Shown here: piece after piece, positions 1 to 57,243 of the stretch
Numbering within the stretch: the first letter of the stretch is position 1
Layout: every line of letters starts with the position of its first letter
Assembly (NCBI GenBank): GCA_030651475.1
Contig: JAUSEW010000029.1
Coordinates: 21,777-85,776, forward strand
Length of the DNA: 64,000 nt
Direction: 5' to 3'
From: Candidatus Levyibacteriota bacterium
GTDB lineage: Bacteria > Patescibacteriota > Microgenomatia > Levybacterales > UBA12049
Notes under the pieces: model-generated
Told to the model about the DNA's origin: nothing
The model's input: only the letters and a program-made list of their open reading frames with translations
Databases searched by the model: none
Translations under genes and position numbers: made by a program

Positions 1-8
1 AAATCCCG

Positions 9-224
9 ATGGAAGTATCAGGAGACAGAAGAATGGCTTTGGCTATGCGTTGGATAATCCAAGCCGCAAGATCAAGATCGAGTAAAGATTTTCATTTATT
101 TTCAGAAAAGCTGGCAATTGAATTTATGGATGCGGCCCAGAACCTCGGAGAGGCAATTAAGAAAAGAGACGCAGTTGAAAGAATGGCCCAAGCCAACAAG
201 GCGTTCGCCCATTTTAGGTGGTAA
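9..224 (+). CDS. hypothetical protein
   Basis: 71-aa ORF in six-frame track; no recognisable motif; may start upstream of window. Confidence 0.2.
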
Positions 225-225
225 A

Positions 226-597
226 TTATTTGACCAAAATATGGTCTTCTGGTCTCCATCCGGGTTTTGATAAACAACTTACCCAAGTTTCGTTTCCTTT
301 CGCAGAATGAATTTCGCCTGGCTTTATAATAAATTTATCTCCTTTTTTTAATTTATATTTTCTCTTACCTAGCGTAATAATTAAATCGCCTCGTAGGATT
401 TCATAGAATTCAGTAGCCTTTTTATGATAATGAGGTTTTGAATCGTCAATGATGGCAATAGCAATGCCATCTTCTTCGTTATTTTTCGCCGGTTCAATCT
501 CGCAGATAATTTCTGTGGGATTTTCGGGCGGATTTAGAACGATTGTTTTATTAGGATACTTCTTTTTTAATTCAGAAACAACTTTCCTAACATTCAT
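226..597 (-). CDS. cupin-domain protein
   Basis: 123 aa; cupin-like two-motif pattern (HYHKKATEFYEILRGD ... KPGEIHSAKG) recognised by eye. Confidence 0.45.
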   Translation of the reverse strand: MNVRKVVSELKKKYPNKTIVLNPPENPTEIICEIEPAKNNEEDGIAIAIIDDSKPHYHKKATEFYEILRGDLIITLGKRKYKLKKGDKFIIKPGEIHSAKGNETWVSCLSKPGWRPEDHILVK

Positions 598-721
598 AGG
601 GTATATTTTATCAAAATTAAGAAATCATTGTATGGTTATTCCCAAAATTTTATCTCCGGGTTATTTAATGATTTTTATTCAGCGCTAGTTTAGCTAAGTC
701 AATTTAATTCTGTTTGAAAGA

Positions 722-745
722 CTATAATGATACGTATCATTATAG
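722..745. repeat. 24-bp perfect palindrome CTATAATGATACGTATCATTATAG (18-bp core TAATGATACGTATCATTA), copy 1 of 3
   Basis: read directly from sequence; self-complementary; lies 7 bp beyond the stop of the TrpR-like gene. Confidence 0.95.
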
Positions 746-751
746 TGATGA

Positions 752-1195
752 TTAGAAGGCTTTTCTCTTTACTCTTTTTTGCTTCTCATGTTCTTGTTTT
801 TGATATACCCAATTGCTTCCTTTAGATTTTGGAATTTTTGTCAAAACATCTTCGACTTTTTGCCAGAAATTATCTTGATTCTCCATAGCCAGAATCCTTT
901 CTACGACTTTTTTATATCCTTTGCCTGAATATTTGAGCCGTAAACTTACAGAGGCAATGGTTGATGGTGTAACTCGTAAAATTTCTGCAATCGCAGGATA
1001 ATTATGTCCTTTCGCAAGAAGCACGGCTATAGCAAGTCTTTTACTCAACATTATTTTTTCAACCGGGGATAGAAAATCTTCTAAGAAATCTTCGATATCT
1101 TCATTATTTTTTAAACGAGATATCGTAGATTTGAAAATTTCAAACATTCTTTTCTCTACGTCTTTATGTATTGGATATTTAGAAACTTGTGTCAT
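752..1195 (-). CDS. TrpR-like YerC/YecD-family DNA-binding protein
   Basis: 147 aa; segment FLEDFLSPVEKIMLSKRLAIAVLLAKGHNYPAIAEILRVTPSTIASVSLRLKY resembles Bacillus YerC / Trp-repressor fold by eye. Confidence 0.6.
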   Translation of the reverse strand: MTQVSKYPIHKDVEKRMFEIFKSTISRLKNNEDIEDFLEDFLSPVEKIMLSKRLAIAVLLAKGHNYPAIAEILRVTPSTIASVSLRLKYSGKGYKKVVERILAMENQDNFWQKVEDVLTKIPKSKGSNWVYQKQEHEKQKRVKRKAF

Positions 1196-1221
1196 ACTCT
1201 AATGATACGTATCATTAGAGT
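1196..1221. repeat. 26-bp perfect palindrome ACTCTAATGATACGTATCATTAGAGT abutting the start codon of the TrpR-like gene, copy 2 of 3
   Basis: read directly; identical 18-bp core to copy 1; 25 of its bases identical to the copy at 30104-30128. Confidence 0.95.
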
Positions 1222-1297
1222 GCATGTCAAGAGTAGGATTTAGAGTTAAATTAAAAAATAAAATATTAATGCAGACTAGTCTATAGGAGGTTAAATA

Positions 1298-1903
1298 TTA
1301 TTCAATAGTAATTCCGAGGATTTTGGAGCCGATTTGGAGTTTGTTTACGACGTCCATGCCTTTGGTGATGATTCCAAAATTTGTATACTGACCGTTTAAG
1401 AATTGTGAGTCTTTTTTGGTAATGAAAAATTGAGCATCGTTTTGCACTTTTCCATCGCCTCTGCTGGCAATTCCAAGAGAGCCGACAACAAATGGTTTAT
1501 TATTAAACTCAACCGGCATATTGCCTCCGCCTGTTCCATTGCCAAGCGGATCGCCACCTTGTACTACCCAATCTTCAACCCGATGAAATGTAAGATTATT
1601 GTAGAAACCGCTTTTGGCTTTTTGCACAAAATTATTTACAGTATTCGGCGCATCTTTTGAAAAAAGAGAAAGCGTAATATCTCCTTTACTGGTTTTGATA
1701 ATTGCCGTAGAAGTTGCGGTTGGATTTTCTGCCATAGGTGTTATTATAACAGTTGGCGAAGGAGTTGGTGTGGGATTCTTAGAAGGAATAGCCAAGGTTT
1801 CTTTTTGTGCGGGAGAAGCCTGTTGAGAAGATTTGTTGTTTAAGACGAGAACTGCGAAAAATCCCAAGATAAGAATAAATATAACCAAAATAAATTTATT
1901 CAT
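1298..1903 (-). CDS. peptidyl-prolyl cis-trans isomerase, cyclophilin type, with N-terminal membrane anchor/signal
   Basis: 201 aa; cyclophilin signatures FHRV..WVVQGGDP..GTGGGN and hydrophobic N-terminus. Confidence 0.75.
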   Translation of the reverse strand: MNKFILVIFILILGFFAVLVLNNKSSQQASPAQKETLAIPSKNPTPTPSPTVIITPMAENPTATSTAIIKTSKGDITLSLFSKDAPNTVNNFVQKAKSGFYNNLTFHRVEDWVVQGGDPLGNGTGGGNMPVEFNNKPFVVGSLGIASRGDGKVQNDAQFFITKKDSQFLNGQYTNFGIITKGMDVVNKLQIGSKILGITIE

Positions 1904-1916
1904 GTTGGCTATTATA

Positions 1917-2558
1917 TCAAAAATACATCAAATGTAGCCAATCAAATTCTCCTTCCTTGAGAATTTTTTTAACAGCGCCGATGGTTGTTTTGATTCTTCT
2001 TGCCCGTTGGGGTTCTCCGTCAGAAAATTTAGCTGGTTCTTGAGTAATGGTTGGTTTTGGTAAATTGAGCTCATCCAAATTTTCAAGAAATGCATCCAAA
2101 AAAGCTCCATCTCCAGATAATATATCTGACTTACGACAATGATTCGCAATTCCCCTTGCGCATCCTTCACATAGAATATCCGGTATTCCTTCTACAATTT
2201 CCGCTGGATGATTATCAGGCAAGTTTAGAAATTGTTCATCCGTTTGTCTATTATATTTTTCTACCCTATCAGCATCTTCCGTAGAAAAACCAAATAGCTC
2301 ATGAAAATATTTCAAATTTCTAAATACGTCTAGTGGTTCGATATCAGGGCTATTTCCGATAGCAAGATAGAAATAATTCTCCACTCGGAATCTCGTATAT
2401 CTTGCGTGTTCTGCTGCATATTCAACTGGGTTTTCAGCTCTAATCAGAAATGCAAAATCTTTAAGGTGGTGGCCGCGGATTACGAATGGCTTTGATCCAT
2501 CAACCTCTCCATTCACTCTTCGTACAGGATTAAGTACGTGTGTTTCAAGTTCAGACAT
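1917..2558 (-). CDS. hypothetical protein with CEGCARGIANHC cysteine motif
   Basis: 213-aa ORF; no family recognised. Confidence 0.35.
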   Translation of the reverse strand: MSELETHVLNPVRRVNGEVDGSKPFVIRGHHLKDFAFLIRAENPVEYAAEHARYTRFRVENYFYLAIGNSPDIEPLDVFRNLKYFHELFGFSTEDADRVEKYNRQTDEQFLNLPDNHPAEIVEGIPDILCEGCARGIANHCRKSDILSGDGAFLDAFLENLDELNLPKPTITQEPAKFSDGEPQRARRIKTTIGAVKKILKEGEFDWLHLMYF

Positions 2559-2783
2559 AGTGGGAAAGATTATATCATCCTACTCCTCTAGAATGCAAAA
2601 AGAAAATATGGTATACTAATTTTGCAAATTCTAAACTCTAAGCGCTAAATTCTAAACCAGCCTTCGCCAAAGGCTACGGCCGGCATAGTAATATCAAAAT
2701 CAGAATTACAGGAATTCAAAAGAGTTTCGAGCTTATAATTTTAAAAATTTGAATTTATTTAGGTTTTAGGATTTTTTATTATT

Positions 2784-4895
2784 ATGGCTGAAGATAAAAG
2801 ATATGTTGAATTAGATCACATCAGAAACATTGGCATTATTGCCCATATTGACGCGGGTAAAACCACGACTACCGAGCGTATTTTGTACTATACAGGGAAA
2901 ACCTACAAAATCGGAGATATTGATGAGGGGACAACGGTCATGGATTGGATGGAAGAGGAAAAGAAAAGAGGGATCACGATTGTGTCTGCTGCAACTACTG
3001 CATATTGGGGGGGTTACAGATTTAATATTATTGACACTCCTGGACACGTTGATTTTACAGCCGAAGTAGAAAGGTCGCTTCGGGTTTTGGACGGTGGAAT
3101 CACAGTTCTGGATGCAGAAGAAGGAGTTCAATCTCAATCCGAAACTGTCTGGAGACAAGCAGATAAATACAAAGTTCCAAGACTTTGTTTTATTAACAAG
3201 ATGGATAAGGTTGGAGCTGATTTTTTGGCAACTGTCAAAAGCATTGAGGACAGACTCGGAGCAAATACGGCAATTATGGTTTTGCCAATCGGAGCCGAAG
3301 CAACCTTTAAGGGAGTTTATGATTTACTGACCAGAAAATCCGTTATCTGGACAGGAGAAGAATTAGGCGCAAAGTTTGAAATTACTTCGGAAATCCCGGA
3401 AGGAATGGGACAGGAGATTGAAAAATACAGAGCCAAGTTGGTTGAGAAAATTGCAGAAACAGATGATGTGCTGGTCGAAAAATATCTTGCAAATCAAGAG
3501 ATTGGGGTTGAGGAATTAAAGAAAGCCTTAAGGCGGGCAGTTATTGCTTATAAATTAGTTCCGATTTTCGCCGGATCATCCTTGAGGAACAAAGGAGTGC
3601 AGCTTCTTCTGGATGGAGTTGTTGATTATCTTCCATCTCCTGTTGATCTAGATCAAGTGAAAGGAATAAATCCAAAAACAGGGGAAGAAGAAATAAGAAA
3701 ATTAGTTCCCGAAGAGTCAATTGCGGGTTTGGCTTTCAAAATTCAGAATGATCCTCACGTTGGAAAACTTACCTATTTTAGGATTTATTCAGGTAAAGTT
3801 GCGGCCGGAACTTATATTTATAACAGCACTAAAAATATTCAAGAAAGGGTTGGGCGGCTGCTTCTGATGCACTCCAATGAAAGAACGGAAATAAAAGAAG
3901 CGTTTGCCGGAGAAATTATTGCAATCGTCGGACTTAAAGACACGACCACAGGAGATACGCTTTGTGATCCGGAAAAACCAATTATTTTAGAAAAAATTAC
4001 CTTCCCGGAGCCGGTTATATCCCTAGCAATTGAGCCAAAAACGAAATCAGATCAGGAGAAATTGGGATACGCTTTAAAACGTTTGATGGATGAAGATCCG
4101 ACATTTCAGGTTAAGACCAATCATGAAACAGGACAGACAATTATTTCAGGAGTTGGAGAGCTGCAGCTTGAGGTTAAAGTAAATACCATGAAGGCTGATT
4201 TCGGAGTTGAGGCCAATGTCGGAGACCCACAAGTGGCCTACAAAGAAACTATTAGCAGGGAAGCGGAAGGTGAAGGAAAATACATCAAGCAATCCGGAGG
4301 AAAAGGACAATACGGACATTGTCTGTTGAGAGTTACGCCTAAGCCTCGCGGAGAAGGTTTTGAATTTGTTAATGGTGTCAAGGGAGGAGCAATTCCGGCA
4401 ATATTTATATCCTCGATTGAAAAAGGAGTTAAGGAAACAATGGAAAACGGAATTTTGTTGGGTTACCCGATGGTAGATATGACGGTTACGGTTTATGACG
4501 GGTCCTATCATGAAGTTGATTCTTCAGATATTGCCTTTAAGATCGCAGCTTCCCAAGCCTTGCAGGCAGCAACCAAAAAAGCAGGCCTGACACTTTTGGA
4601 ACCAATCATGAAAGTTGAAGTAACAACCCCAAATGAATTTATGGGAGATGTGATTGGAGATTTGTCTTCCAAAAGAGCGCAGATTTCAGGGACAGAAGAG
4701 AGAAGCAGAGCAACGATTATTTTGGCAATGGTGCCTTTGTCAGGGCTTCCTGGTTATGCAACTGCGCTTCGCTCTATGTCTCAAGGCAGAGCGTCTTATT
4801 ATATGGAACCTTCACATTATGAGGAAGTGCCCAAAAATATTCAAGAAGAAATGTTGGCCAAATCTACATTTACAGGAAGGGTTAATGCACAGTAA
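2784..4895 (+). CDS. fusA: translation elongation factor G
   Basis: 703 aa; AHIDAGKTTTTERIL, DTPGHVDF, NKMD GTPase motifs and EF-G domain order. Confidence 0.97.
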   Translation: MAEDKRYVELDHIRNIGIIAHIDAGKTTTTERILYYTGKTYKIGDIDEGTTVMDWMEEEKKRGITIVSAATTAYWGGYRFNIIDTPGHVDFTAEVERSLRVLDGGITVLDAEEGVQSQSETVWRQADKYKVPRLCFINKMDKVGADFLATVKSIEDRLGANTAIMVLPIGAEATFKGVYDLLTRKSVIWTGEELGAKFEITSEIPEGMGQEIEKYRAKLVEKIAETDDVLVEKYLANQEIGVEELKKALRRAVIAYKLVPIFAGSSLRNKGVQLLLDGVVDYLPSPVDLDQVKGINPKTGEEEIRKLVPEESIAGLAFKIQNDPHVGKLTYFRIYSGKVAAGTYIYNSTKNIQERVGRLLLMHSNERTEIKEAFAGEIIAIVGLKDTTTGDTLCDPEKPIILEKITFPEPVISLAIEPKTKSDQEKLGYALKRLMDEDPTFQVKTNHETGQTIISGVGELQLEVKVNTMKADFGVEANVGDPQVAYKETISREAEGEGKYIKQSGGKGQYGHCLLRVTPKPRGEGFEFVNGVKGGAIPAIFISSIEKGVKETMENGILLGYPMVDMTVTVYDGSYHEVDSSDIAFKIAASQALQAATKKAGLTLLEPIMKVEVTTPNEFMGDVIGDLSSKRAQISGTEERSRATIILAMVPLSGLPGYATALRSMSQGRASYYMEPSHYEEVPKNIQEEMLAKSTFTGRVNAQ

Positions 4896-4910
4896 ATAGT
4901 AAATAGGGTA

Positions 4911-29000: not shown

Positions 29001-29303
29001 ATGATAACATCACCGGTAAAACTTTGGAGAAGGCAAAAAAATACATCAGCTCTTATAGGGAAAAAAGGGAAAATTTTGCAGTGGACAATTATTCGGGTTC
29101 CGGCTAAATCTTTTATTGATCAAGCGCCGTACCCTGTTGTAATTGTGAAAATGCAAAATGGAGAAAATATGATTGGGCAATTAGTTGACTGGCAGGAAAA
29201 AGATTTGATAGTAGGGAAAGACGTTATTGCTGTTTTGCGAAGATTGAGAACGGAAGGGAAAGAAGACGTTATCTACTACAACATTAAATTCAAGCCTCTA
29301 TGA
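29001..29303 (+). CDS. DUF35-family OB-fold protein (thiolase/HMGCS partner), lacking zinc-ribbon
   Basis: 100 aa; OB-fold pattern; no cysteines; position right after thiolase as in archaea. Confidence 0.6.
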   Translation: MITSPVKLWRRQKNTSALIGKKGKILQWTIIRVPAKSFIDQAPYPVVIVKMQNGENMIGQLVDWQEKDLIVGKDVIAVLRRLRTEGKEDVIYYNIKFKPL

Positions 29304-30367
29304 AAAAAATTCAAGTTTCTGCCCCGGGTAAGTTACATTTATTGGGCGAACACGTGGTAGTACACGGAAAACCAGCTATTATTGCAACGGTAAATAAACG
29401 CTGTTTTGTAGAAATTACTCCCCGAAAAGATAGGAAAATAGAAATTATTTCTGAAAATTTGAAAGCAAGTAAGATAGTTACGGAAAAAGAAATTATTGCA
29501 AAAACTAAAGAAGCGCAAACAAAATGGGAAACTTATATAAAAACTAATGAGATATCTCTTCTTAAGTCTATAGCTTCAGATCCCTTAGACTTTCCGATTA
29601 TTGTTATTGGTGAGACTTTAAAATATCTTAACAAAACTTTACCATTTGGTTTTACTCTATCAATAAAATCAGATATTCCAATTGGTTCCGGGATGGGATC
29701 TTCTGCGGCACTTAGTGTTTCTATAGCTGGTGCCATGTATTTATTGTTTAATAAAAATTTAGATAAAGAAGTTATAAATGAAATTGCCTATCTTGCAGAA
29801 CAAAAGAAACACGGCCTTCCGTCCGGAGGAGACAATGTTGCTAGTTGTTTTGGAGGAATGGTTTGGTATCGTAAAGAAACACCAGACTTAAAAATTATCA
29901 AACCAATTCCTTTTTCCTTCCCCCGAAAATTGGCAAAGAATTTTGTCGCCATTCATACAGGTATTCCAATTGAATCAACAGGCGAAATGGTAAGTATCGT
30001 ACGGGGACTATATCAAACAAAAAAAGATTTTGTTGAAAATATTTTATCAAGCCAGGAAAAACTAACACGAGAGCTTCTATCTGCAATAAAGGATGGCGAC
30101 GACACTCTAATGATACGTATCATTAGAGCGGGAGAGAAAAACCTTGAAGCGTTAGGGGTTGTAGGAAAAAAGGCACAAGCTATAATTAGGGAAATAGAAA
30201 AGTTAGGAGGAGCGGCAAAAATATCTGGAGCAGGAGGTATTAAGAATGGGTCGGGAATGCTTCTTGCTTACCATAAAACACCAGTAGCTCTTGATGAAGC
30301 TTGTTTGCAATTTAAACTTACGAATAGTAAAATAGCGCTTGGAGACGAGGGCTTAAGACAGGAGTAA
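29300..30367 (+). CDS. mvk: GHMP kinase, mevalonate kinase-like
   Basis: 355 aa; APGKLHLLGEHVVV N-terminus, PIGSGMGSSAA motif 2; contains 24-bp palindrome copy 3. Confidence 0.75.
   Translation: MKKIQVSAPGKLHLLGEHVVVHGKPAIIATVNKRCFVEITPRKDRKIEIISENLKASKIVTEKEIIAKTKEAQTKWETYIKTNEISLLKSIASDPLDFPIIVIGETLKYLNKTLPFGFTLSIKSDIPIGSGMGSSAALSVSIAGAMYLLFNKNLDKEVINEIAYLAEQKKHGLPSGGDNVASCFGGMVWYRKETPDLKIIKPIPFSFPRKLAKNFVAIHTGIPIESTGEMVSIVRGLYQTKKDFVENILSSQEKLTRELLSAIKDGDDTLMIRIIRAGEKNLEALGVVGKKAQAIIREIEKLGGAAKISGAGGIKNGSGMLLAYHKTPVALDEACLQFKLTNSKIALGDEGLRQE
30105..30128. repeat. 24-bp perfect palindrome CTCTAATGATACGTATCATTAGAG inside mvk coding sequence, copy 3 of 3
   Basis: read directly; 25 nt (30104-30128) identical to 1196-1220. 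Confidence 0.95.
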
Positions 30368-30371
30368 AATT

Positions 30372-31226
30372 ATGGTACCCATAAACTATGGAGGAAGAAT
30401 TGAAAGTAGAGGTCCTGAAACCTATAGGAGTCAGTCCTTATTAGACACTATTTTTCAAGCAACTGGTTTAGAAAATTTTCAAGGAAGTGCAGTTGTTATC
30501 GATTTAATGTCGGGTCCTGGAGGAATAGCGCTTAATCTTCAGAAAAAAGCCTCCAGACATTCTTATGCTGTTCTAGATTATGATCAGGAACAATTAGCCA
30601 AAATAGGGGAGCACGAGCCCGTAAATAAGATATTGGCTGATGTAAGGAATGTATCTTCTGTTGTTAAAGGAGAATCTGTAGATATCGCAACTGCTCGTTA
30701 TGGGATTAAGGATATACCTCAAGGGCAACAGCTTCAAGCGCTCAAAGGTATTAATGAGATATTGAGACCAGGAGGAGTTTTTGTGCTTACAGATATGATT
30801 TCCTTGGAAGGTGAAGGATTGCAGAGGTGGCTTAACATACAACATAGTCAAAAGCAGCAGCTTAGCGGAAGAGAAATTGAAAAAGAGGGAGAGTGTTATA
30901 TCCCGACAGAAAAAGAGTGGCTAGCGATGTTAAAAGAAGTGGGTTTTGAAGCGGAAGTTTTTGGTTATTATACAAGTCCTATTTCTACTGGGGATTGGCT
31001 TACGGGAAATCAATTTGGTAATCCAAAATCACCGGAAGCGGCCAGGAAAAAAGCTATTATGGACGAGATAATAATGAACGCTCCAGAAGGTGTGAAAAAA
31101 GCGTTTAATGTGCGACAAGGAGTGAATGGTATGGAAATTGATTATCCAGTTGTTATAATAAGAGCAGTTAAGAAAGTAGCAGAGTCTGGTTTGCCTACTG
31201 CTGGTGATTTATATGCCGCAAGCTAA
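30372..31226 (+). CDS. class I SAM-dependent methyltransferase
   Basis: 284 aa; motif I VIDLMSGPGGIA, motif post-I ILRPGGVFVL. Confidence 0.7.
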   Translation: MVPINYGGRIESRGPETYRSQSLLDTIFQATGLENFQGSAVVIDLMSGPGGIALNLQKKASRHSYAVLDYDQEQLAKIGEHEPVNKILADVRNVSSVVKGESVDIATARYGIKDIPQGQQLQALKGINEILRPGGVFVLTDMISLEGEGLQRWLNIQHSQKQQLSGREIEKEGECYIPTEKEWLAMLKEVGFEAEVFGYYTSPISTGDWLTGNQFGNPKSPEAARKKAIMDEIIMNAPEGVKKAFNVRQGVNGMEIDYPVVIIRAVKKVAESGLPTAGDLYAAS

Positions 31227-56473: not shown

Positions 56474-57127
56474 CTAAACCGTGAAGAGAGATTTTAAGAT
56501 AGAGAAAGCTTTATTGATATCTTCATCTTGAAAAACTAATGTTAATTCGCGACTCGTCGAAACAATTTCTATTATATTGACGTTTTCCCAGACTAGCGAC
56601 TTTAGAAATGAGTAGATTACGCCTGGTGATCTTGCAGCCTCCTCAGGTAAGTAAATAGTAATAGAAGACAAATTGTCAATGTCGGAAATAATAGTTTCTT
56701 TTTGAAGATAGAGAAGTATTTCTTTTTTTAAACTATCACTTATAATCATCGTCGTTTCAGAAAGCCCTTCGGTTAATGTAAGAAAATGTCGTTTTTTTAT
56801 AGGGTGCACTTGAAAGAAGGTAGAGCAGGATTCATAAAGAGTGTCAGAATTAACCAGAGTTACAAGGGATAGGCGAGAACGGATAGCGATTTCAGGTTGG
56901 GTTTTAAATATATTTTTATAATTGATATTGGGCTTAATCCTATTTTTCAATCTATTGATAGCCATGATTATAGAACTCTGACTCGTTTTTTTTATCAACA
57001 TTTTTTCAATTTCTGGTTTTATATATTTTGCAAGAGCAGAGCTATTTATAATTCCCTTAGCAAAGGCTTCAGTTAAGTAACGAGACCTTTTTATTATTGT
57101 TTCTGTTACCTGAGGTACAGTAACCAT
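56474..57127 (-). CDS. hypothetical protein, possible ACT-like regulatory domains
   Basis: 217 aa; C-terminal beta-alpha-beta-beta-alpha pattern; weak. Confidence 0.25.
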   Translation of the reverse strand: MVTVPQVTETIIKRSRYLTEAFAKGIINSSALAKYIKPEIEKMLIKKTSQSSIIMAINRLKNRIKPNINYKNIFKTQPEIAIRSRLSLVTLVNSDTLYESCSTFFQVHPIKKRHFLTLTEGLSETTMIISDSLKKEILLYLQKETIISDIDNLSSITIYLPEEAARSPGVIYSFLKSLVWENVNIIEIVSTSRELTLVFQDEDINKAFSILKSLFTV

Positions 57128-57243
57128 ATGTTAAAATTTTAACATAATGTATGGGATTTGTCAATAATTTATCAAAATTTGACATCGTTACTAATAAATA
57201 ATATAGTGTTTTTTATGTTCCCCAAGAACAGTTAATTAAAATT

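What the first reader, a model, noticed from the sequence alone, without database searches (positions are those of the whole stretch)
722..1221. TrpR/YerC-like regulator gene bracketed precisely by two copies of an identical 18-bp-core perfect palindrome
CTATAATGATACGTATCATTATAG (722-745) ends 7 bp beyond the stop codon. ACTCTAATGATACGTATCATTAGAGT (1196-1221) abuts the start codon, leaving no room for a ribosome-binding site. Long perfect palindromes are classical dimeric HTH operators, so the gene may be autoregulated from the upstream copy, perhaps with a leaderless mRNA. Alternatively the gene plus palindromes is a small cassette.
Basis: seen in the sequence. Interest (0 to 1): 0.65.

Follow-up and report, generated by a model that had tools for sequence, protein, structure and literature searches.

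The report
Repressor gene bracketed by its operators
A small Trp-repressor-like gene of an uncultivated Levybacteria (CPR) bacterium is flanked by two copies of a perfect palindrome that is almost certainly its own binding site. The same 28-bp palindrome also recurs, letter-perfect, at gene ends and inside housekeeping genes, where it dictates the encoded amino acids.

Summary
Perfect 26-nt palindromes at 721-746 and 1196-1221 bracket a 147-aa TrpR/YerC-fold gene (752-1195, minus strand).

The upstream copy lies inside a near-consensus promoter, TTGACA-17-TATCAT. The A of the ATG is 7 nt after the -10, so a leaderless, autorepressed mRNA is well supported. Leaderless starts are common in this genome.

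In related Microgenomates loci, most genes of this family carry a cognate palindrome both before the start and just after the stop. The palindrome sequence changes with lineage and with paralogue.

In metagenomes, 73 of 95 exact hits extend to a 28-bp palindrome. They lie at the regulator, a few promoters, many gene 3' ends, and in frame inside CysRS, ArgRS, MetRS, TGT, G6PD and mevalonate kinase. In mevalonate kinase the peptide changes (TLMIRIIR to TLMIYIIK) to match variant palindromes.

It is not REP-like (low copy number), not a canonical terminator (no T-run), and not an insertion.

Best reading: an autoregulated DNA-binding protein with a sparse set of all-or-none sites. The role of the downstream and dispersed copies (looping, roadblock or architecture) is unresolved. 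This is a new variant of the TrpR/HisR kind, and no binding data exist.

The parts
752..1195 (-). 147-aa TrpR/YerC-fold DNA-binding protein. The TrpR-like core spans about aa 10-105. A conserved C-terminal extension spans aa 106-147 and ends in a basic tail.
   Evidence: Pfam PF01371 at 8e-12. TIGR02531 YerC/YecD scores 39.4 bits, below its cutoff of 42.2. PDB sequence matches to 3g1c, 3kor and 3frw at 3e-9 to 3e-8. The AF2 model has pLDDT 76.6, and Foldseek top hits are the same YerC-like structures followed by E. coli TrpR. There is a 100% match to a protein annotated Candidatus Levybacteria on a 90-kb contig. The family has 713 50%-identity clusters at E<=1e-10, mostly 145-152 aa.
1196..1221 (.). 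Upstream 26-nt perfect palindrome. It is the putative primary operator, overlapping the promoter spacer and the -10 and abutting the ATG.
   Evidence: In 59 related loci a cognate palindrome lies within 60 nt of the start codon.
1225..1230 (-). -35 hexamer TTGACA of the regulator promoter.
   Evidence: The promoter scan scored 11 of 12 matches with a 17-nt spacer. A TTGACA-like hexamer (>=5/6) lies left of the palindrome centre in 21 of 59 related loci, against 10% in controls; in 14 of these 21 it is 16-17 nt from the centre.
1202..1207 (-). -10 hexamer TATCAT, contained in the promoter-distal half of the palindrome.
   Evidence: It is followed by TAGAGT and then ATG, as read.
1193..1195 (-). 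ATG start codon. Its A (position 1195) lies 7 nt after the -10, the predicted transcription start, which implies a leaderless mRNA.
   Evidence: Geometry. The conserved N-terminus fixes the start codon. Leaderless-type starts are common in the window.
721..746 (.). Downstream 26-nt perfect palindrome, 5 nt after the stop codon. It is a second binding site. Its role is inferred (auxiliary operator, roadblock or anchor), not shown.
   Evidence: In most of the 53 related loci tabulated, a cognate palindrome starts within about 10 nt of the regulator's stop, whether the next gene is co-directional (39) or convergent (14).
30105..30128 (.). Third copy, a 24-nt perfect palindrome inside the mevalonate kinase CDS. 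It is read in frame as T-L-M-I-R-I-I-R.
   Evidence: The same site occupies the same codons in orthologues picked by protein similarity (L174). Variant forms occur in L170, L173 and L175.
29300..30367 (+). Mevalonate kinase gene that hosts the third palindrome at codons 270-277.
   Evidence: TIGR00549 at 9e-54, above its cutoff. Homologue alignment.

Best explanation
The 147-aa protein is a dimeric TrpR/YerC-fold DNA-binding protein. Its cognate site is the perfect palindrome [CT]ACT[CA]TAATGATACGTATCATTA[GT]AGT[GA], 26-28 bp long.

**Step 1: cognate pairing (shown by comparison).** Gene and palindrome form a cognate pair. The palindrome flanks the gene across the family and changes with lineage and paralogue.

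**Step 2: autorepression (shown by sequence geometry, inferred as function).** The upstream copy fills the spacer and the -10 of the gene's own sigma-70-type promoter. Bound protein should therefore exclude RNA polymerase, giving negative autoregulation. The transcript should begin at or within a few nucleotides of the ATG, so it is a leaderless mRNA without a Shine-Dalgarno sequence. This is usual in this genome.

**Step 3: role of the other copies (inferred).**
- The copy just after the stop codon, and a sparse set of further letter-perfect copies, are additional high-affinity sites for the same protein. I estimate about 10-20 per genome. They lie at a few other promoters, at many gene 3' ends and in frame inside housekeeping genes.
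- My preferred mechanism is that dimers bound at the two flanking sites cooperate through the conserved C-terminal extension. They would close a loop of about 475 bp or block polymerases entering or leaving the gene, which would stabilise the autoregulatory loop.
- The dispersed sites would act as promoter operators where they overlap a promoter. Elsewhere they would act as position-independent roadblocks or anchor points.
- The effector of the TrpR-like pocket, if there is one, is unknown.
For: **Fold and family.**

**Promoter geometry.** TTGACA-17-TATCAT-6 nt-ATG.

**Family-wide bracket.**
- 80 loci from Levy-, Shapiro-, Curtiss-, Woese-, Gottesman- and other CPR groups were examined.
- Most carry a palindrome before the start and after the stop.
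- Cores differ by lineage (ATGATACGTATCAT, ATGATATATATCAT, ATGATTTAAATCAT, ATGATTCGAATCAT, ATGAATCGATTCAT, GGTTTGAACC and others). The two copies match each other within a locus.
- Genomes with 2-3 paralogues have a distinct palindrome for each (L016/L032/L034, L022/L026).
- Recognition-helix residues change along with core type.

**Lineage-specific extra sites.** They occur within 10 kb of the gene in L017, L044, L053 and L070.

**Dispersed sites of the window's type.**
- 73 of 95 exact 18-mer hits extend to the 28-bp palindrome.
- They are all-or-none. In 503 kb there were 73 exact sites, 6 with 1-2 mismatches, none with 3, and 4-5 mismatches occurred at chance level.
- 56% are intergenic, which exceeds what these gene-dense loci would give by chance.

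**DNA-level selection inside CDSs.**
- In mevalonate kinase the ancestral peptide SELMRIIKEG is replaced by TLMIRIIR, with no indel.
- The peptide becomes TLMIYIIK or TLMIHIIR exactly as the ATAT- and ACAT-type palindromes require.
- This includes a symmetric double change, CTA..AGA to TTA..AAA.
- Elsewhere in the gene, identical amino acids share the same codon only 54-66% of the time.

**Independence from the next gene.** The downstream copy stays close to the stop regardless of the next gene's orientation.
Against: - **No experiment.** Binding, the transcription start site and repression are all inferred.
- **The metagenome scan finds only exact 18-mers.** Perfection of the core is therefore partly an ascertainment effect, although the flanks, the mismatch spectrum and the protein-picked loci are not biased in this way.
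- **Looping has no positive support.** Distances between the two copies (450-534 bp) show no helical phasing, Rayleigh p 0.94. Neither copy is systematically the stronger. Oligomerisation through the C-terminal extension is untested, and that part of the model has pLDDT of only about 65.
- **Site placement is not typical of a regulon.**
  - Few dispersed sites have a -35.
  - Among 13 non-self sites between co-directional genes, 10 lie closer to the upstream gene's stop than to the next start. In six of these the stop codon lies inside the palindrome.
  - Four contexts lie between convergent genes.
- **A roadblock placed right after a stop codon could be overridden.** A trailing ribosome can push the polymerase through such a block. 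This rests on general knowledge, not on a test here.
- **Half-sites co-vary at one position.** The counts are C..G 49, A..T 9 and mixed 4. Independent half-site recognition does not predict this.
Confidence: 0.6

Rival explanations
1. The protein is mainly a chromosome-architecture or landmark protein rather than a transcription factor. In this reading its sparse perfect palindromes are position-independent anchor sites, like parS, matS, ram or Noc-binding sites. They would be bridged by the C-terminal extension, and promoter overlap at its own gene would merely provide homeostasis.
For: - Sites are all-or-none, with no tail of weak sites.
- Many lie in 'neutral' places: at stop codons, between convergent genes and inside CDSs at positions conserved between genomes.
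- Only a minority overlap a promoter.
- The host genes are a functionally mixed set: aaRSs, TGT, Mur enzymes, ThyA/DHFR, G6PD, glycosyltransferases and mevalonate kinase.
- The conserved C-terminal extension has no counterpart in canonical TrpR or HisR.
Against: - Genomes carry 2-3 paralogues, each with its own palindrome type and its own dispersed sites (L153). This is typical of an expanding transcription-factor family, not of a segregation system.
- Several non-self sites have exact promoter geometry (L081:2640 and L093). In about 11 loci the downstream copy abuts the next gene's start exactly as the upstream copy abuts the regulator's.
- No positional clustering on a chromosome could be tested.
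Confidence: 0.2
2. The palindrome works mainly as an RNA or single-stranded-DNA hairpin at gene 3' ends. It would be a REP-like mRNA stabiliser or a non-canonical bidirectional terminator. The flanked gene would then be its associated protein, by analogy with REP elements and the RAYT gene they flank.
For: - Many sites sit at or within a few nucleotides of stop codons, or between convergent genes.
- In other lineages the arms extend to 30-36 nt. The outer arms differ between the up and down copies while each copy stays self-complementary (L022, L043, L058).
- Half-sites co-vary at one position.
- The architecture of a gene flanked by its own dispersed palindrome resembles REP/RAYT. This comparison rests on general knowledge.
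Against: - There is no T-run after the palindromes: a mean of 2.3 T in 8 nt, which equals background, and only 5% have 5 or more T.
- Canonical GC-rich terminators with T-runs do exist in these genomes (L124, L110).
- The hairpins are weak, -10 to -13 kcal/mol.
- What is conserved across unrelated sites is the sequence, not only the pairing. Within a lineage it tracks the regulator type.
- The outermost conserved position shows no pairing covariation.
- The upstream copy lies upstream of its gene's transcription start.
- Copy number is tens, not hundreds.
- There is no Y1 transposase.
- Rfam gives no match.
Confidence: 0.1
3. Gene plus palindromes is a mobile or formerly mobile cassette. It would be a domesticated transposase DNA-binding domain between former terminal inverted repeats, with the dispersed copies as solo repeats left by transposition.
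For: - There are weak hits to transposase-type HTH models: HTH_23 at 3e-6, HTH_38 at 6e-6 and IS630 at 0.008.
- The gene and both palindromes occupy two different contexts in Levybacteria. In the window and in L001 they lie between ribosomal protein S7 and EF-G, splitting the str operon. Elsewhere they lie in PRPP synthetase - RecR - x - REG - FeS-assembly protein - x - CysRS.
- Paralogues always carry their own pair of palindromes.
Against: - No catalytic domain, recombinase or integrase lies in or next to the unit.
- Synteny is conserved across many genomes.
- Intragenic copies sit at orthologous codons in several genomes. They replace existing sequence with no length change: none in mevalonate kinase, a 1-residue offset in TGT and none in G6PD against solved homologues. 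They are therefore not insertions.
- Matches to TrpR and YerC are much stronger than those to transposase HTH models.
Confidence: 0.07

Closest known systems
E. coli TrpR and its autoregulated trpR promoter
   Same: It has the same fold (Foldseek matches to 1tro, 1trr and others; Pfam PF01371). It is a dimeric HTH protein with a palindromic operator that overlaps the gene's own promoter, giving negative autoregulation.
   Different: - The protein is 147 aa rather than about 108, with a conserved C-terminal extension.
- The site is a 26-28-bp perfect palindrome rather than about 18-20 bp.
- There is a second copy after the stop codon.
- Dispersed copies lie at gene ends and inside CDSs.
- The targets are not tryptophan genes, and the ligand is unknown.
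HisR (B. subtilis YerC) subfamily of the TrpR family (PMC9413887)
   Same: It is the closest by sequence and structure (3g1c, 3kor and 3frw at about 3e-9). That paper (read) reports that its operators are lineage-specific 20-bp palindromes and that its gene is autoregulated in roughly half of the genomes studied.
   Different: - HisR proteins are under 100 aa and control his genes and histidine transporters from promoter sites.
- The window protein scores below the YerC/YecD equivalog cutoff (39.4 against 42.2).
- Levybacteria also have a separate canonical 98-aa YerC-like gene with its own, different operator, ACTTTAGTATACTAAAGT.
Repressors with auxiliary operators and DNA looping (LacI O1/O2, GalR OE/OI, lambda CI OL/OR bracketing cI)
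   Same: A repressor site at the promoter is paired with a second site some hundreds of bp away, downstream or on the far side of the repressor gene. This comparison rests on general knowledge.
   Different: Looping is not shown here. There is no helical phasing, no hierarchy of site strength and no evidence of oligomerisation.
REP elements and their RAYT genes
   Same: The gene is flanked by copies of a palindrome that is also dispersed in the genome, often at gene 3' ends.
   Different: - There is no Y1 transposase.
- Copies number in the tens rather than hundreds.
- The copies are perfect, not imperfect, palindromes.
- They also occur in frame inside genes.
- They arose by substitution rather than insertion.
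Site-specific chromosome proteins (ParB/parS, MatP/matS, RacA/ram, Noc/NBS) and Tus/Ter
   Same: A few to a few dozen near-perfect sites occur per genome, many of them inside genes. In some of these systems (tus/TerB) the protein's gene lies next to a site that autoregulates it. This comparison rests on general knowledge.
   Different: The fold is different. Several paralogues with distinct sites occur per genome, and some sites have clear promoter-operator geometry. Chromosomal position could not be examined.

Membership tests
TrpR family (Pfam PF01371) | Sequence match above the family's gathering score | tested here: met
   45.5 bits against a cutoff of 27, E 8e-12, covering aa 20-100.
TrpR family (Pfam PF01371) | TrpR-like all-helical fold with an HTH | tested here: met
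   The AF2 model has pLDDT 76.6. Foldseek top hits are 3kor, 3frw and 3g1c (TM on target 0.73-0.81), followed by E. coli TrpR structures.
TrpR family (Pfam PF01371) | Palindromic operator overlapping a promoter, with autoregulation | tested here: met
   Met by sequence geometry and comparative conservation only. Binding itself was not tested.
TrpR family (Pfam PF01371) | Amino-acid corepressor bound between the subunits | not testable with these tools
   No ligand prediction was possible, and pocket residues were not mapped.
YerC/YecD = HisR equivalog (TIGR02531) | Score above the curated equivalog cutoff | tested here: not met
   39.4 bits against a cutoff of 42.2.
YerC/YecD = HisR equivalog (TIGR02531) | Length under about 100 aa; regulon of his genes and histidine transporters | tested here: not met
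   The protein is 147 aa, with a conserved extension across the family. Its sites lie at aaRS, TGT, Mur, ThyA/DHFR, mevalonate kinase and other genes. Only one site is next to a his gene (the end of HisF, L115).
REP/RAYT system | The flanked gene encodes an IS200/IS605-type Y1 transposase | tested here: not met
   The protein matches only HTH and TrpR models.
REP/RAYT system | Hundreds of intergenic copies per genome | tested here: not met
   There are 3 copies in 64 kb, and 1-2 exact copies on contigs of 100-370 kb. 44% of the extended copies are intragenic.
Intrinsic (Rho-independent) terminator | GC-rich stem followed by a T-run | tested here: not met
   The stem is AT-rich, at -10 to -13 kcal/mol. 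There is no T enrichment after the palindrome. No minus-strand terminator call was made here.
Integron gene cassette / IS-like mobile unit | Associated integrase or transposase, and insertion polymorphism | tested here: not met
   No such gene lies in the window neighbourhood or in L176. Synteny is conserved. The dispersed copies are not insertions.
ParB/parS-type or MatP/matS-type chromosome systems | Sites clustered in an ori or ter domain, with the protein bridging or spreading | not testable with these tools

The most novel reading that the evidence does not exclude
Microgenomates (CPR) bacteria carry an expanded family of TrpR-fold proteins. Their letter-perfect 26-36-bp palindromes would be position-independent genomic landmarks, serving as protein roadblocks or insulators at gene ends, or as chromosome anchor points, rather than as ordinary promoter operators. 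Selection for these sites would be strong enough to write fixed peptides (TLMIRIIR, HYNDTYHYS) into essential enzymes and to rewrite them when the protein's specificity drifts.
Probability: 0.22. Interest if true: 0.85.

Novelty: new variant of a known kind. Interest (0 to 1): 0.6.

Why it matters
CPR/Patescibacteria are largely uncultivated, and I found no literature on their gene regulation.

- **A testable pair.** This is a protein-DNA pair defined purely from sequence. The protein is small and soluble-looking, and its 28-bp site is unambiguous. It could be tested directly in vitro or in E. coli.
- **A promoter model.** The locus comes with a promoter model (-35/-10, leaderless start) for these organisms.
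- **A clear case of a general effect.** The intragenic copies show a DNA-binding site constraining, and co-evolving with, the amino-acid sequence of housekeeping enzymes.
- **If the dispersed sites are roadblocks or anchors,** this would be a new use of the TrpR fold.
- **If they are ordinary operators,** it is a well-documented autoregulated member of a CPR-specific TrpR subfamily.

Tried and rejected
- **Canonical terminator.** Rejected. There is no T-run, the hairpins are weak, and no scan hit lies on the right strand.
- **Known RNA family.** None in 1-3000 at E<=1.
- **REP-like abundance.** Rejected on copy number.
- **In-frame insertion of a mobile 28-30-bp unit into genes.** Rejected. 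Mevalonate kinase and G6PD show no indel relative to homologues that lack the site, and TGT shows only a 1-residue offset.
- **Downstream copy as the promoter of the next gene.** True in about 11 loci, where it abuts the next start. It is not general: 14 of 53 next genes are convergent, and many are 30-350 nt away. In the window the cupin gene has its own extended -10, TGATAAAAT at 613-605, 7 nt before its ATG.
- **Helical phasing of the two copies as a sign of looping.** None.
- **Weak primary plus strong auxiliary operator.** No difference between the copies.
- **Hairpin covariation.**
  - Mixed result. Pairing extends 13-14 nt from the centre.
  - At variable positions 8-12, 22 of 41 differences between copies keep both copies paired.
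  - The outermost conserved position of the Levybacteria element varies independently.
  - Quasi-palindrome correction could explain this as well as selection could.
- **Second TrpR-like gene in the window as an alternative binder.** None found.
- **Same-genome pairing of an ATAT-type regulator with an ATAT-type mevalonate kinase site.** It could not be obtained, because the two loci are about 28 kb apart and flanks are limited to 10 kb.
- **Literature.** I found nothing on this family or these palindromes in CPR.
Full report
**1. The observation**

- The downstream palindrome is 26 nt, ACTATAATGATACGTATCATTATAGT at 721-746, and lies 5 nt from the stop codon at 752-754.
- The upstream palindrome is ACTCTAATGATACGTATCATTAGAGT at 1196-1221 and abuts the ATG at 1193-1195.
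- The two differ at a single symmetric pair of positions.
- The shared 18-mer occurs three times in the window against 0.03 expected.
- Only one other perfect palindrome of 16 nt or more exists in the 64 kb.

**2. The gene**

- ORF 752-1195(-) encodes 147 aa. It matches Pfam Trp_repressor above threshold. It falls just below the YerC/YecD equivalog cutoff.
- By sequence it is closest to the solved YerC-like proteins 3g1c, 3kor and 3frw.
- An AlphaFold model (pLDDT 76.6) superposes on these structures and on E. coli TrpR over about aa 10-105.
- Residues 106-147 form a conserved extension with nearly invariant F110, W111, D116, P122, K125, G126, Y131 and F147, and a basic tail. It has no counterpart in TrpR or HisR.
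- The protein is 100% identical to one annotated from a 90-kb Candidatus Levybacteria contig.
- Orthologues are almost all 147 aa with a conserved N-terminus, M[TSA]Q[VI]S[KR]YP[IV], so the ATG is the true start.
- The family is large: 713 clusters at 50% identity with E<=1e-10, mostly 145-152 aa.

**3. Promoter and leaderless start**

- On the minus strand the sequence reads TTGACA (1230-1225), 17 nt, TATCAT (1207-1202), TAGAGT, ATG.
- The palindrome fills the spacer and the -10. The A of the ATG is 7 nt after the -10, which is where transcription should start.
- Across 59 related loci with an upstream palindrome:
  - the distance from palindrome centre to ATG is mostly 13-23 nt;
  - a TTGACA-like hexamer lies left of the centre in 21 loci, against 10% in controls, and in 14 of these it is 16-17 nt away;
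  - only 5 have an SD-like motif.
- More distant lineages (L017, L021) keep the promoter-operator overlap but add an AGGAGG leader.
- In the window only 17 of 74 ORFs have an SD-like motif. Fifteen have a TATAAT-like hexamer, often TGnTATAAT, 5-9 nt before the ATG. These include the neighbouring PPIase and cupin genes.
- The absence of a ribosome-binding site is therefore normal for this genome. It supports a leaderless mRNA rather than a mis-called start.

**4. The bracket is a family trait and the palindrome is cognate**

- A scan of one genome per species returned 80 loci from Levy-, Shapiro-, Curtiss-, Woese-, Gottesman-, Daviesbacteria and other CPR groups.
- Most have a palindrome just before the start and another just after the stop, in most within about 10 nt of it.
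- The palindrome core differs between lineages, but the two copies in a locus match each other.
- Genomes with several paralogues have a different palindrome for each.
- The recognition helix varies along with the core type. This is consistent with co-evolution, though it is confounded by phylogeny.
- In most 10-20-kb loci only the two flanking copies are present.
- In L017, L044, L053 and L070, further copies of the lineage's own type occur nearby.
- This is the strongest evidence that the flanked protein recognises the palindrome.

**5. The palindrome is dispersed, sparse and letter-perfect**

- An exact-match scan of metagenome contigs for the 18-mer returned 89 stretches.
- Including the window, 73 of 95 hits extend beyond the query to [CT]ACT[CA]TAATGATACGTATCATTA[GT]AGT[GA]. 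Conservation stops abruptly at 28 bp.
- In 503 kb of these loci there are 73 exact sites and 6 with one or two mismatches. Most of the six are the partner copy beside a regulator. None has three mismatches, and four or five mismatches occur at chance frequency.
- Long contigs carry one or two exact sites per 100-370 kb, and the window carries three in 64 kb.
- One metagenome holds at least four related genomes, judged by four ArgRS contigs, and about 30 sites. I therefore estimate roughly 10-20 sites per genome.
- This is far from REP-like abundance.

**6. Where the sites lie**

- **(a) At the regulator.** Sites lie before its start and after its stop.
- **(b) At other promoters with exact geometry.**
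  - L081:2640 has TTGACA-17-TATCAT before a 373-aa gene.
  - L093 lies before a 5'-3' exonuclease gene.
  - Several sites lie 7-20 nt before a start codon (MurD, DHFR and others).
- **(c) At gene 3' ends.**
  - In L085, L086, L088, L094, L106, L133, L145 and L158 the stop codon is the TAA of the palindrome.
  - In L103, L110, L115, L116, L124, L137 and L169 the site lies within 8-22 nt of the stop.
  - Four contexts lie between convergent genes.
  - The genes that end there include class I LysRS, GatA-type amidase, glutamate racemase, ThyA, HisF, a canonical YerC-like gene and a NUDIX gene followed by tRNA-Arg.
- **(d) Inside CDSs (44% of sites).** They sit at orthologous codons in several genomes and use only two reading frames.
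  - TLMIRIIR[VA] occurs in mevalonate kinase, CysRS, ArgRS, a methyltransferase-like protein and a double-zinc-ribbon protein.
  - H[YS]NDTYHYS occurs in MetRS, TGT, G6PD, two GT4 glycosyltransferases and a membrane protein.
  - The second frame requires TAT in the right half to avoid a TAG stop. The left half follows suit in six of nine contexts.
- By my count, seven of about 32 distinct contexts are tRNA- or aaRS-related. This is suggestive, but I did not test it statistically.

**7. The intragenic sites are selected as DNA**

- An alignment of 120 mevalonate kinase homologues shows no indel at the site.
- The ancestral peptide (..SELMRIIKEGE.., ..EIIRIIR.GE..) is replaced in one subclade by TLMIRIIR[AV]. 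In some members it is replaced by TLMIYIIK[AV], TLIIYIIKA or TLMIHIIRV.
- These are exactly the translations of the ATAT-, AATAAT- and ACAT-type palindromes that flank regulators in L002-L012, L011 and L003/L005.
- DNA from loci chosen by protein similarity confirms this.
  - L174 carries the exact palindrome.
  - L175 carries the ACAT form.
  - L170 and L173 carry ACT TTA ATG ATA TAT ATT ATT AAA G.
- Relative to the window there is a symmetric double change, CTA..AGA to TTA..AAA. It combines a synonymous Leu change with Arg to Lys. There is also a central CGT to TAT change, Arg to Tyr.
- Elsewhere in the gene, identical residues share the same codon only 54-66% of the time.
- TGT and G6PD, compared with solved homologues, likewise show replacement of a variable segment rather than an insertion.
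- The palindromes were therefore built in place, and the protein sequence follows them. This argues against a mobile-element origin and for selection on the DNA sequence.

**8. What the downstream copy does**

- It stays next to the regulator's stop whether the next gene is co-directional (39 loci) or convergent (14 loci).
- In about 11 loci it abuts the next gene's start in the same geometry as the upstream copy, so it doubles there as that gene's operator. This is not general.
- In the window the next gene (cupin, 226-597) starts 124 nt further on. It has its own extended -10, TGATAAAAT at 613-605.
- No canonical terminator separates PPIase, regulator and cupin on the minus strand.
- I could not discriminate between these roles:
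  - an auxiliary operator that loops to the promoter copy;
  - a protein roadblock that insulates the autoregulated gene from neighbouring transcription;
  - an architectural site.
- There is no helical phasing and no strength hierarchy, and oligomerisation is untested.
- An RNA-hairpin role is unlikely as the main function. There is no T-run, the stems are weak, and sequence rather than structure is conserved. Canonical terminators also exist elsewhere in these genomes.

**9. Context**

- The block of 213-aa gene, PPIase, regulator and cupin lies on the strand opposite to, and between, ribosomal protein S7 and EF-G/EF-Tu. It therefore splits the usually contiguous str operon. L001 shares this placement.
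- Most other Levybacteria have the regulator in PRPP synthetase - RecR - x - REG - FeS-assembly protein - x - CysRS.
- Gene and both palindromes thus moved as one unit at least once, within otherwise conserved synteny.

**10. Comparison with what is known**

- The closest described systems are TrpR and HisR/YerC. They have 20-bp lineage-specific palindromes, frequent autoregulation and proteins under 100 aa (PMC9413887).
- The window protein is a member of the TrpR family by sequence and fold, but not of the HisR equivalog.
- It differs in five ways:
  - the C-terminal extension;
  - the length and perfection of the site;
  - the conserved two-sided bracket;
  - the dispersed copies at gene ends and inside genes;
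  - the mixed set of host genes.
- I found no literature on this family or on such palindromes in CPR.

**11. Verdict**

Its scope was too narrow.
- I rate the finding a new variant of a known kind, with interest 0.6.
- The well-supported part is an autoregulated, CPR-specific TrpR-fold DNA-binding protein with a cognate 28-bp palindrome.
- The open part, which is potentially the more interesting, is why letter-perfect copies are kept at stop codons and inside essential genes.

Noticed in passing
window, whole (for example 605-613, 1904-1925, 57127-57170): Leaderless-type starts are common. 15 of 74 ORFs of 100 aa or more have a TATAAT-like hexamer, often the extended TGnTATAAT, 5-9 nt before the ATG. 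Only 17 of 74 have an SD-like motif.
   Followed up: partly
window 1-4900 and L176: Four minus-strand genes (cupin, regulator, cyclophilin PPIase and a 213-aa protein with no Pfam match) sit between ribosomal protein S7 and EF-G/EF-Tu. They split the normally contiguous str operon. L001 shares this arrangement with partly different cargo.
   Followed up: partly
window 57127-57146: A different 20-nt perfect palindrome, TATGTTAAAATTTTAACATA, overlaps the -10 (TTGACA-17-TAAAAT) and the start codon of a 217-aa gene (56474-57127, minus strand). It may be another operator at a leaderless promoter.
   Followed up: no
window 30372-31226: A class I SAM methyltransferase gene lies between the two GHMP-kinase genes of the mevalonate cluster, directly downstream of the gene that holds the third palindrome. 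It is absent at this position in L170 and L174. L175 has a shorter 203-aa methyltransferase-like gene there.
   Followed up: no
L124:2040-2200 and L110 (reverse strand): Levybacteria also have a canonical 98-aa YerC-like gene (Pfam Trp_repressor 1e-22). It has its own, different palindrome, ACTTTAGTATACTAAAGT, abutting its ATG. A palindrome of the 147-aa protein's type lies 9-14 nt after its stop.
   Followed up: partly
L124:2525-2665, L110 (reverse strand): Downstream of that palindrome lie a short conserved ORF of about 21 codons (MKREILNKNISHNHTPLFGRV in L124) and two canonical GC-rich hairpins with T-runs. This could be a small peptide gene or a small RNA, and it shows that ordinary intrinsic terminators exist in these genomes.
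   Followed up: no
L153:1516-1533: A TTTAAA-type palindrome, GCTTTAATGATTTAAATCATTAAAGC, is the operator type of another paralogue group. It lies on the same contig as an ACGT-type site (L153:1090). One genome can therefore carry two independent sets of sites.
   Followed up: no
L088:4640-4774, L116: One palindrome overlaps the stop codon of a NUDIX gene and lies 42 nt upstream of a tRNA-Arg(CCG) gene on the same strand. By my count, tRNA- or aaRS-related genes (CysRS, ArgRS, MetRS, LysRS, GatA-type amidase, TGT and this tRNA) make up about 7 of 32 distinct site contexts.
   Followed up: partly
62 distinct 28-bp sites in the window and L081-L169: The base next to the 18-mer core co-varies between the two half-sites (C..G 49, A..T 9, mixed 4), whereas the outermost conserved position varies independently. 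Part of this reflects avoidance of a stop codon in one reading frame, but the symmetric change in the other half is unexplained. Quasi-palindrome correction is one possibility.
   Followed up: partly
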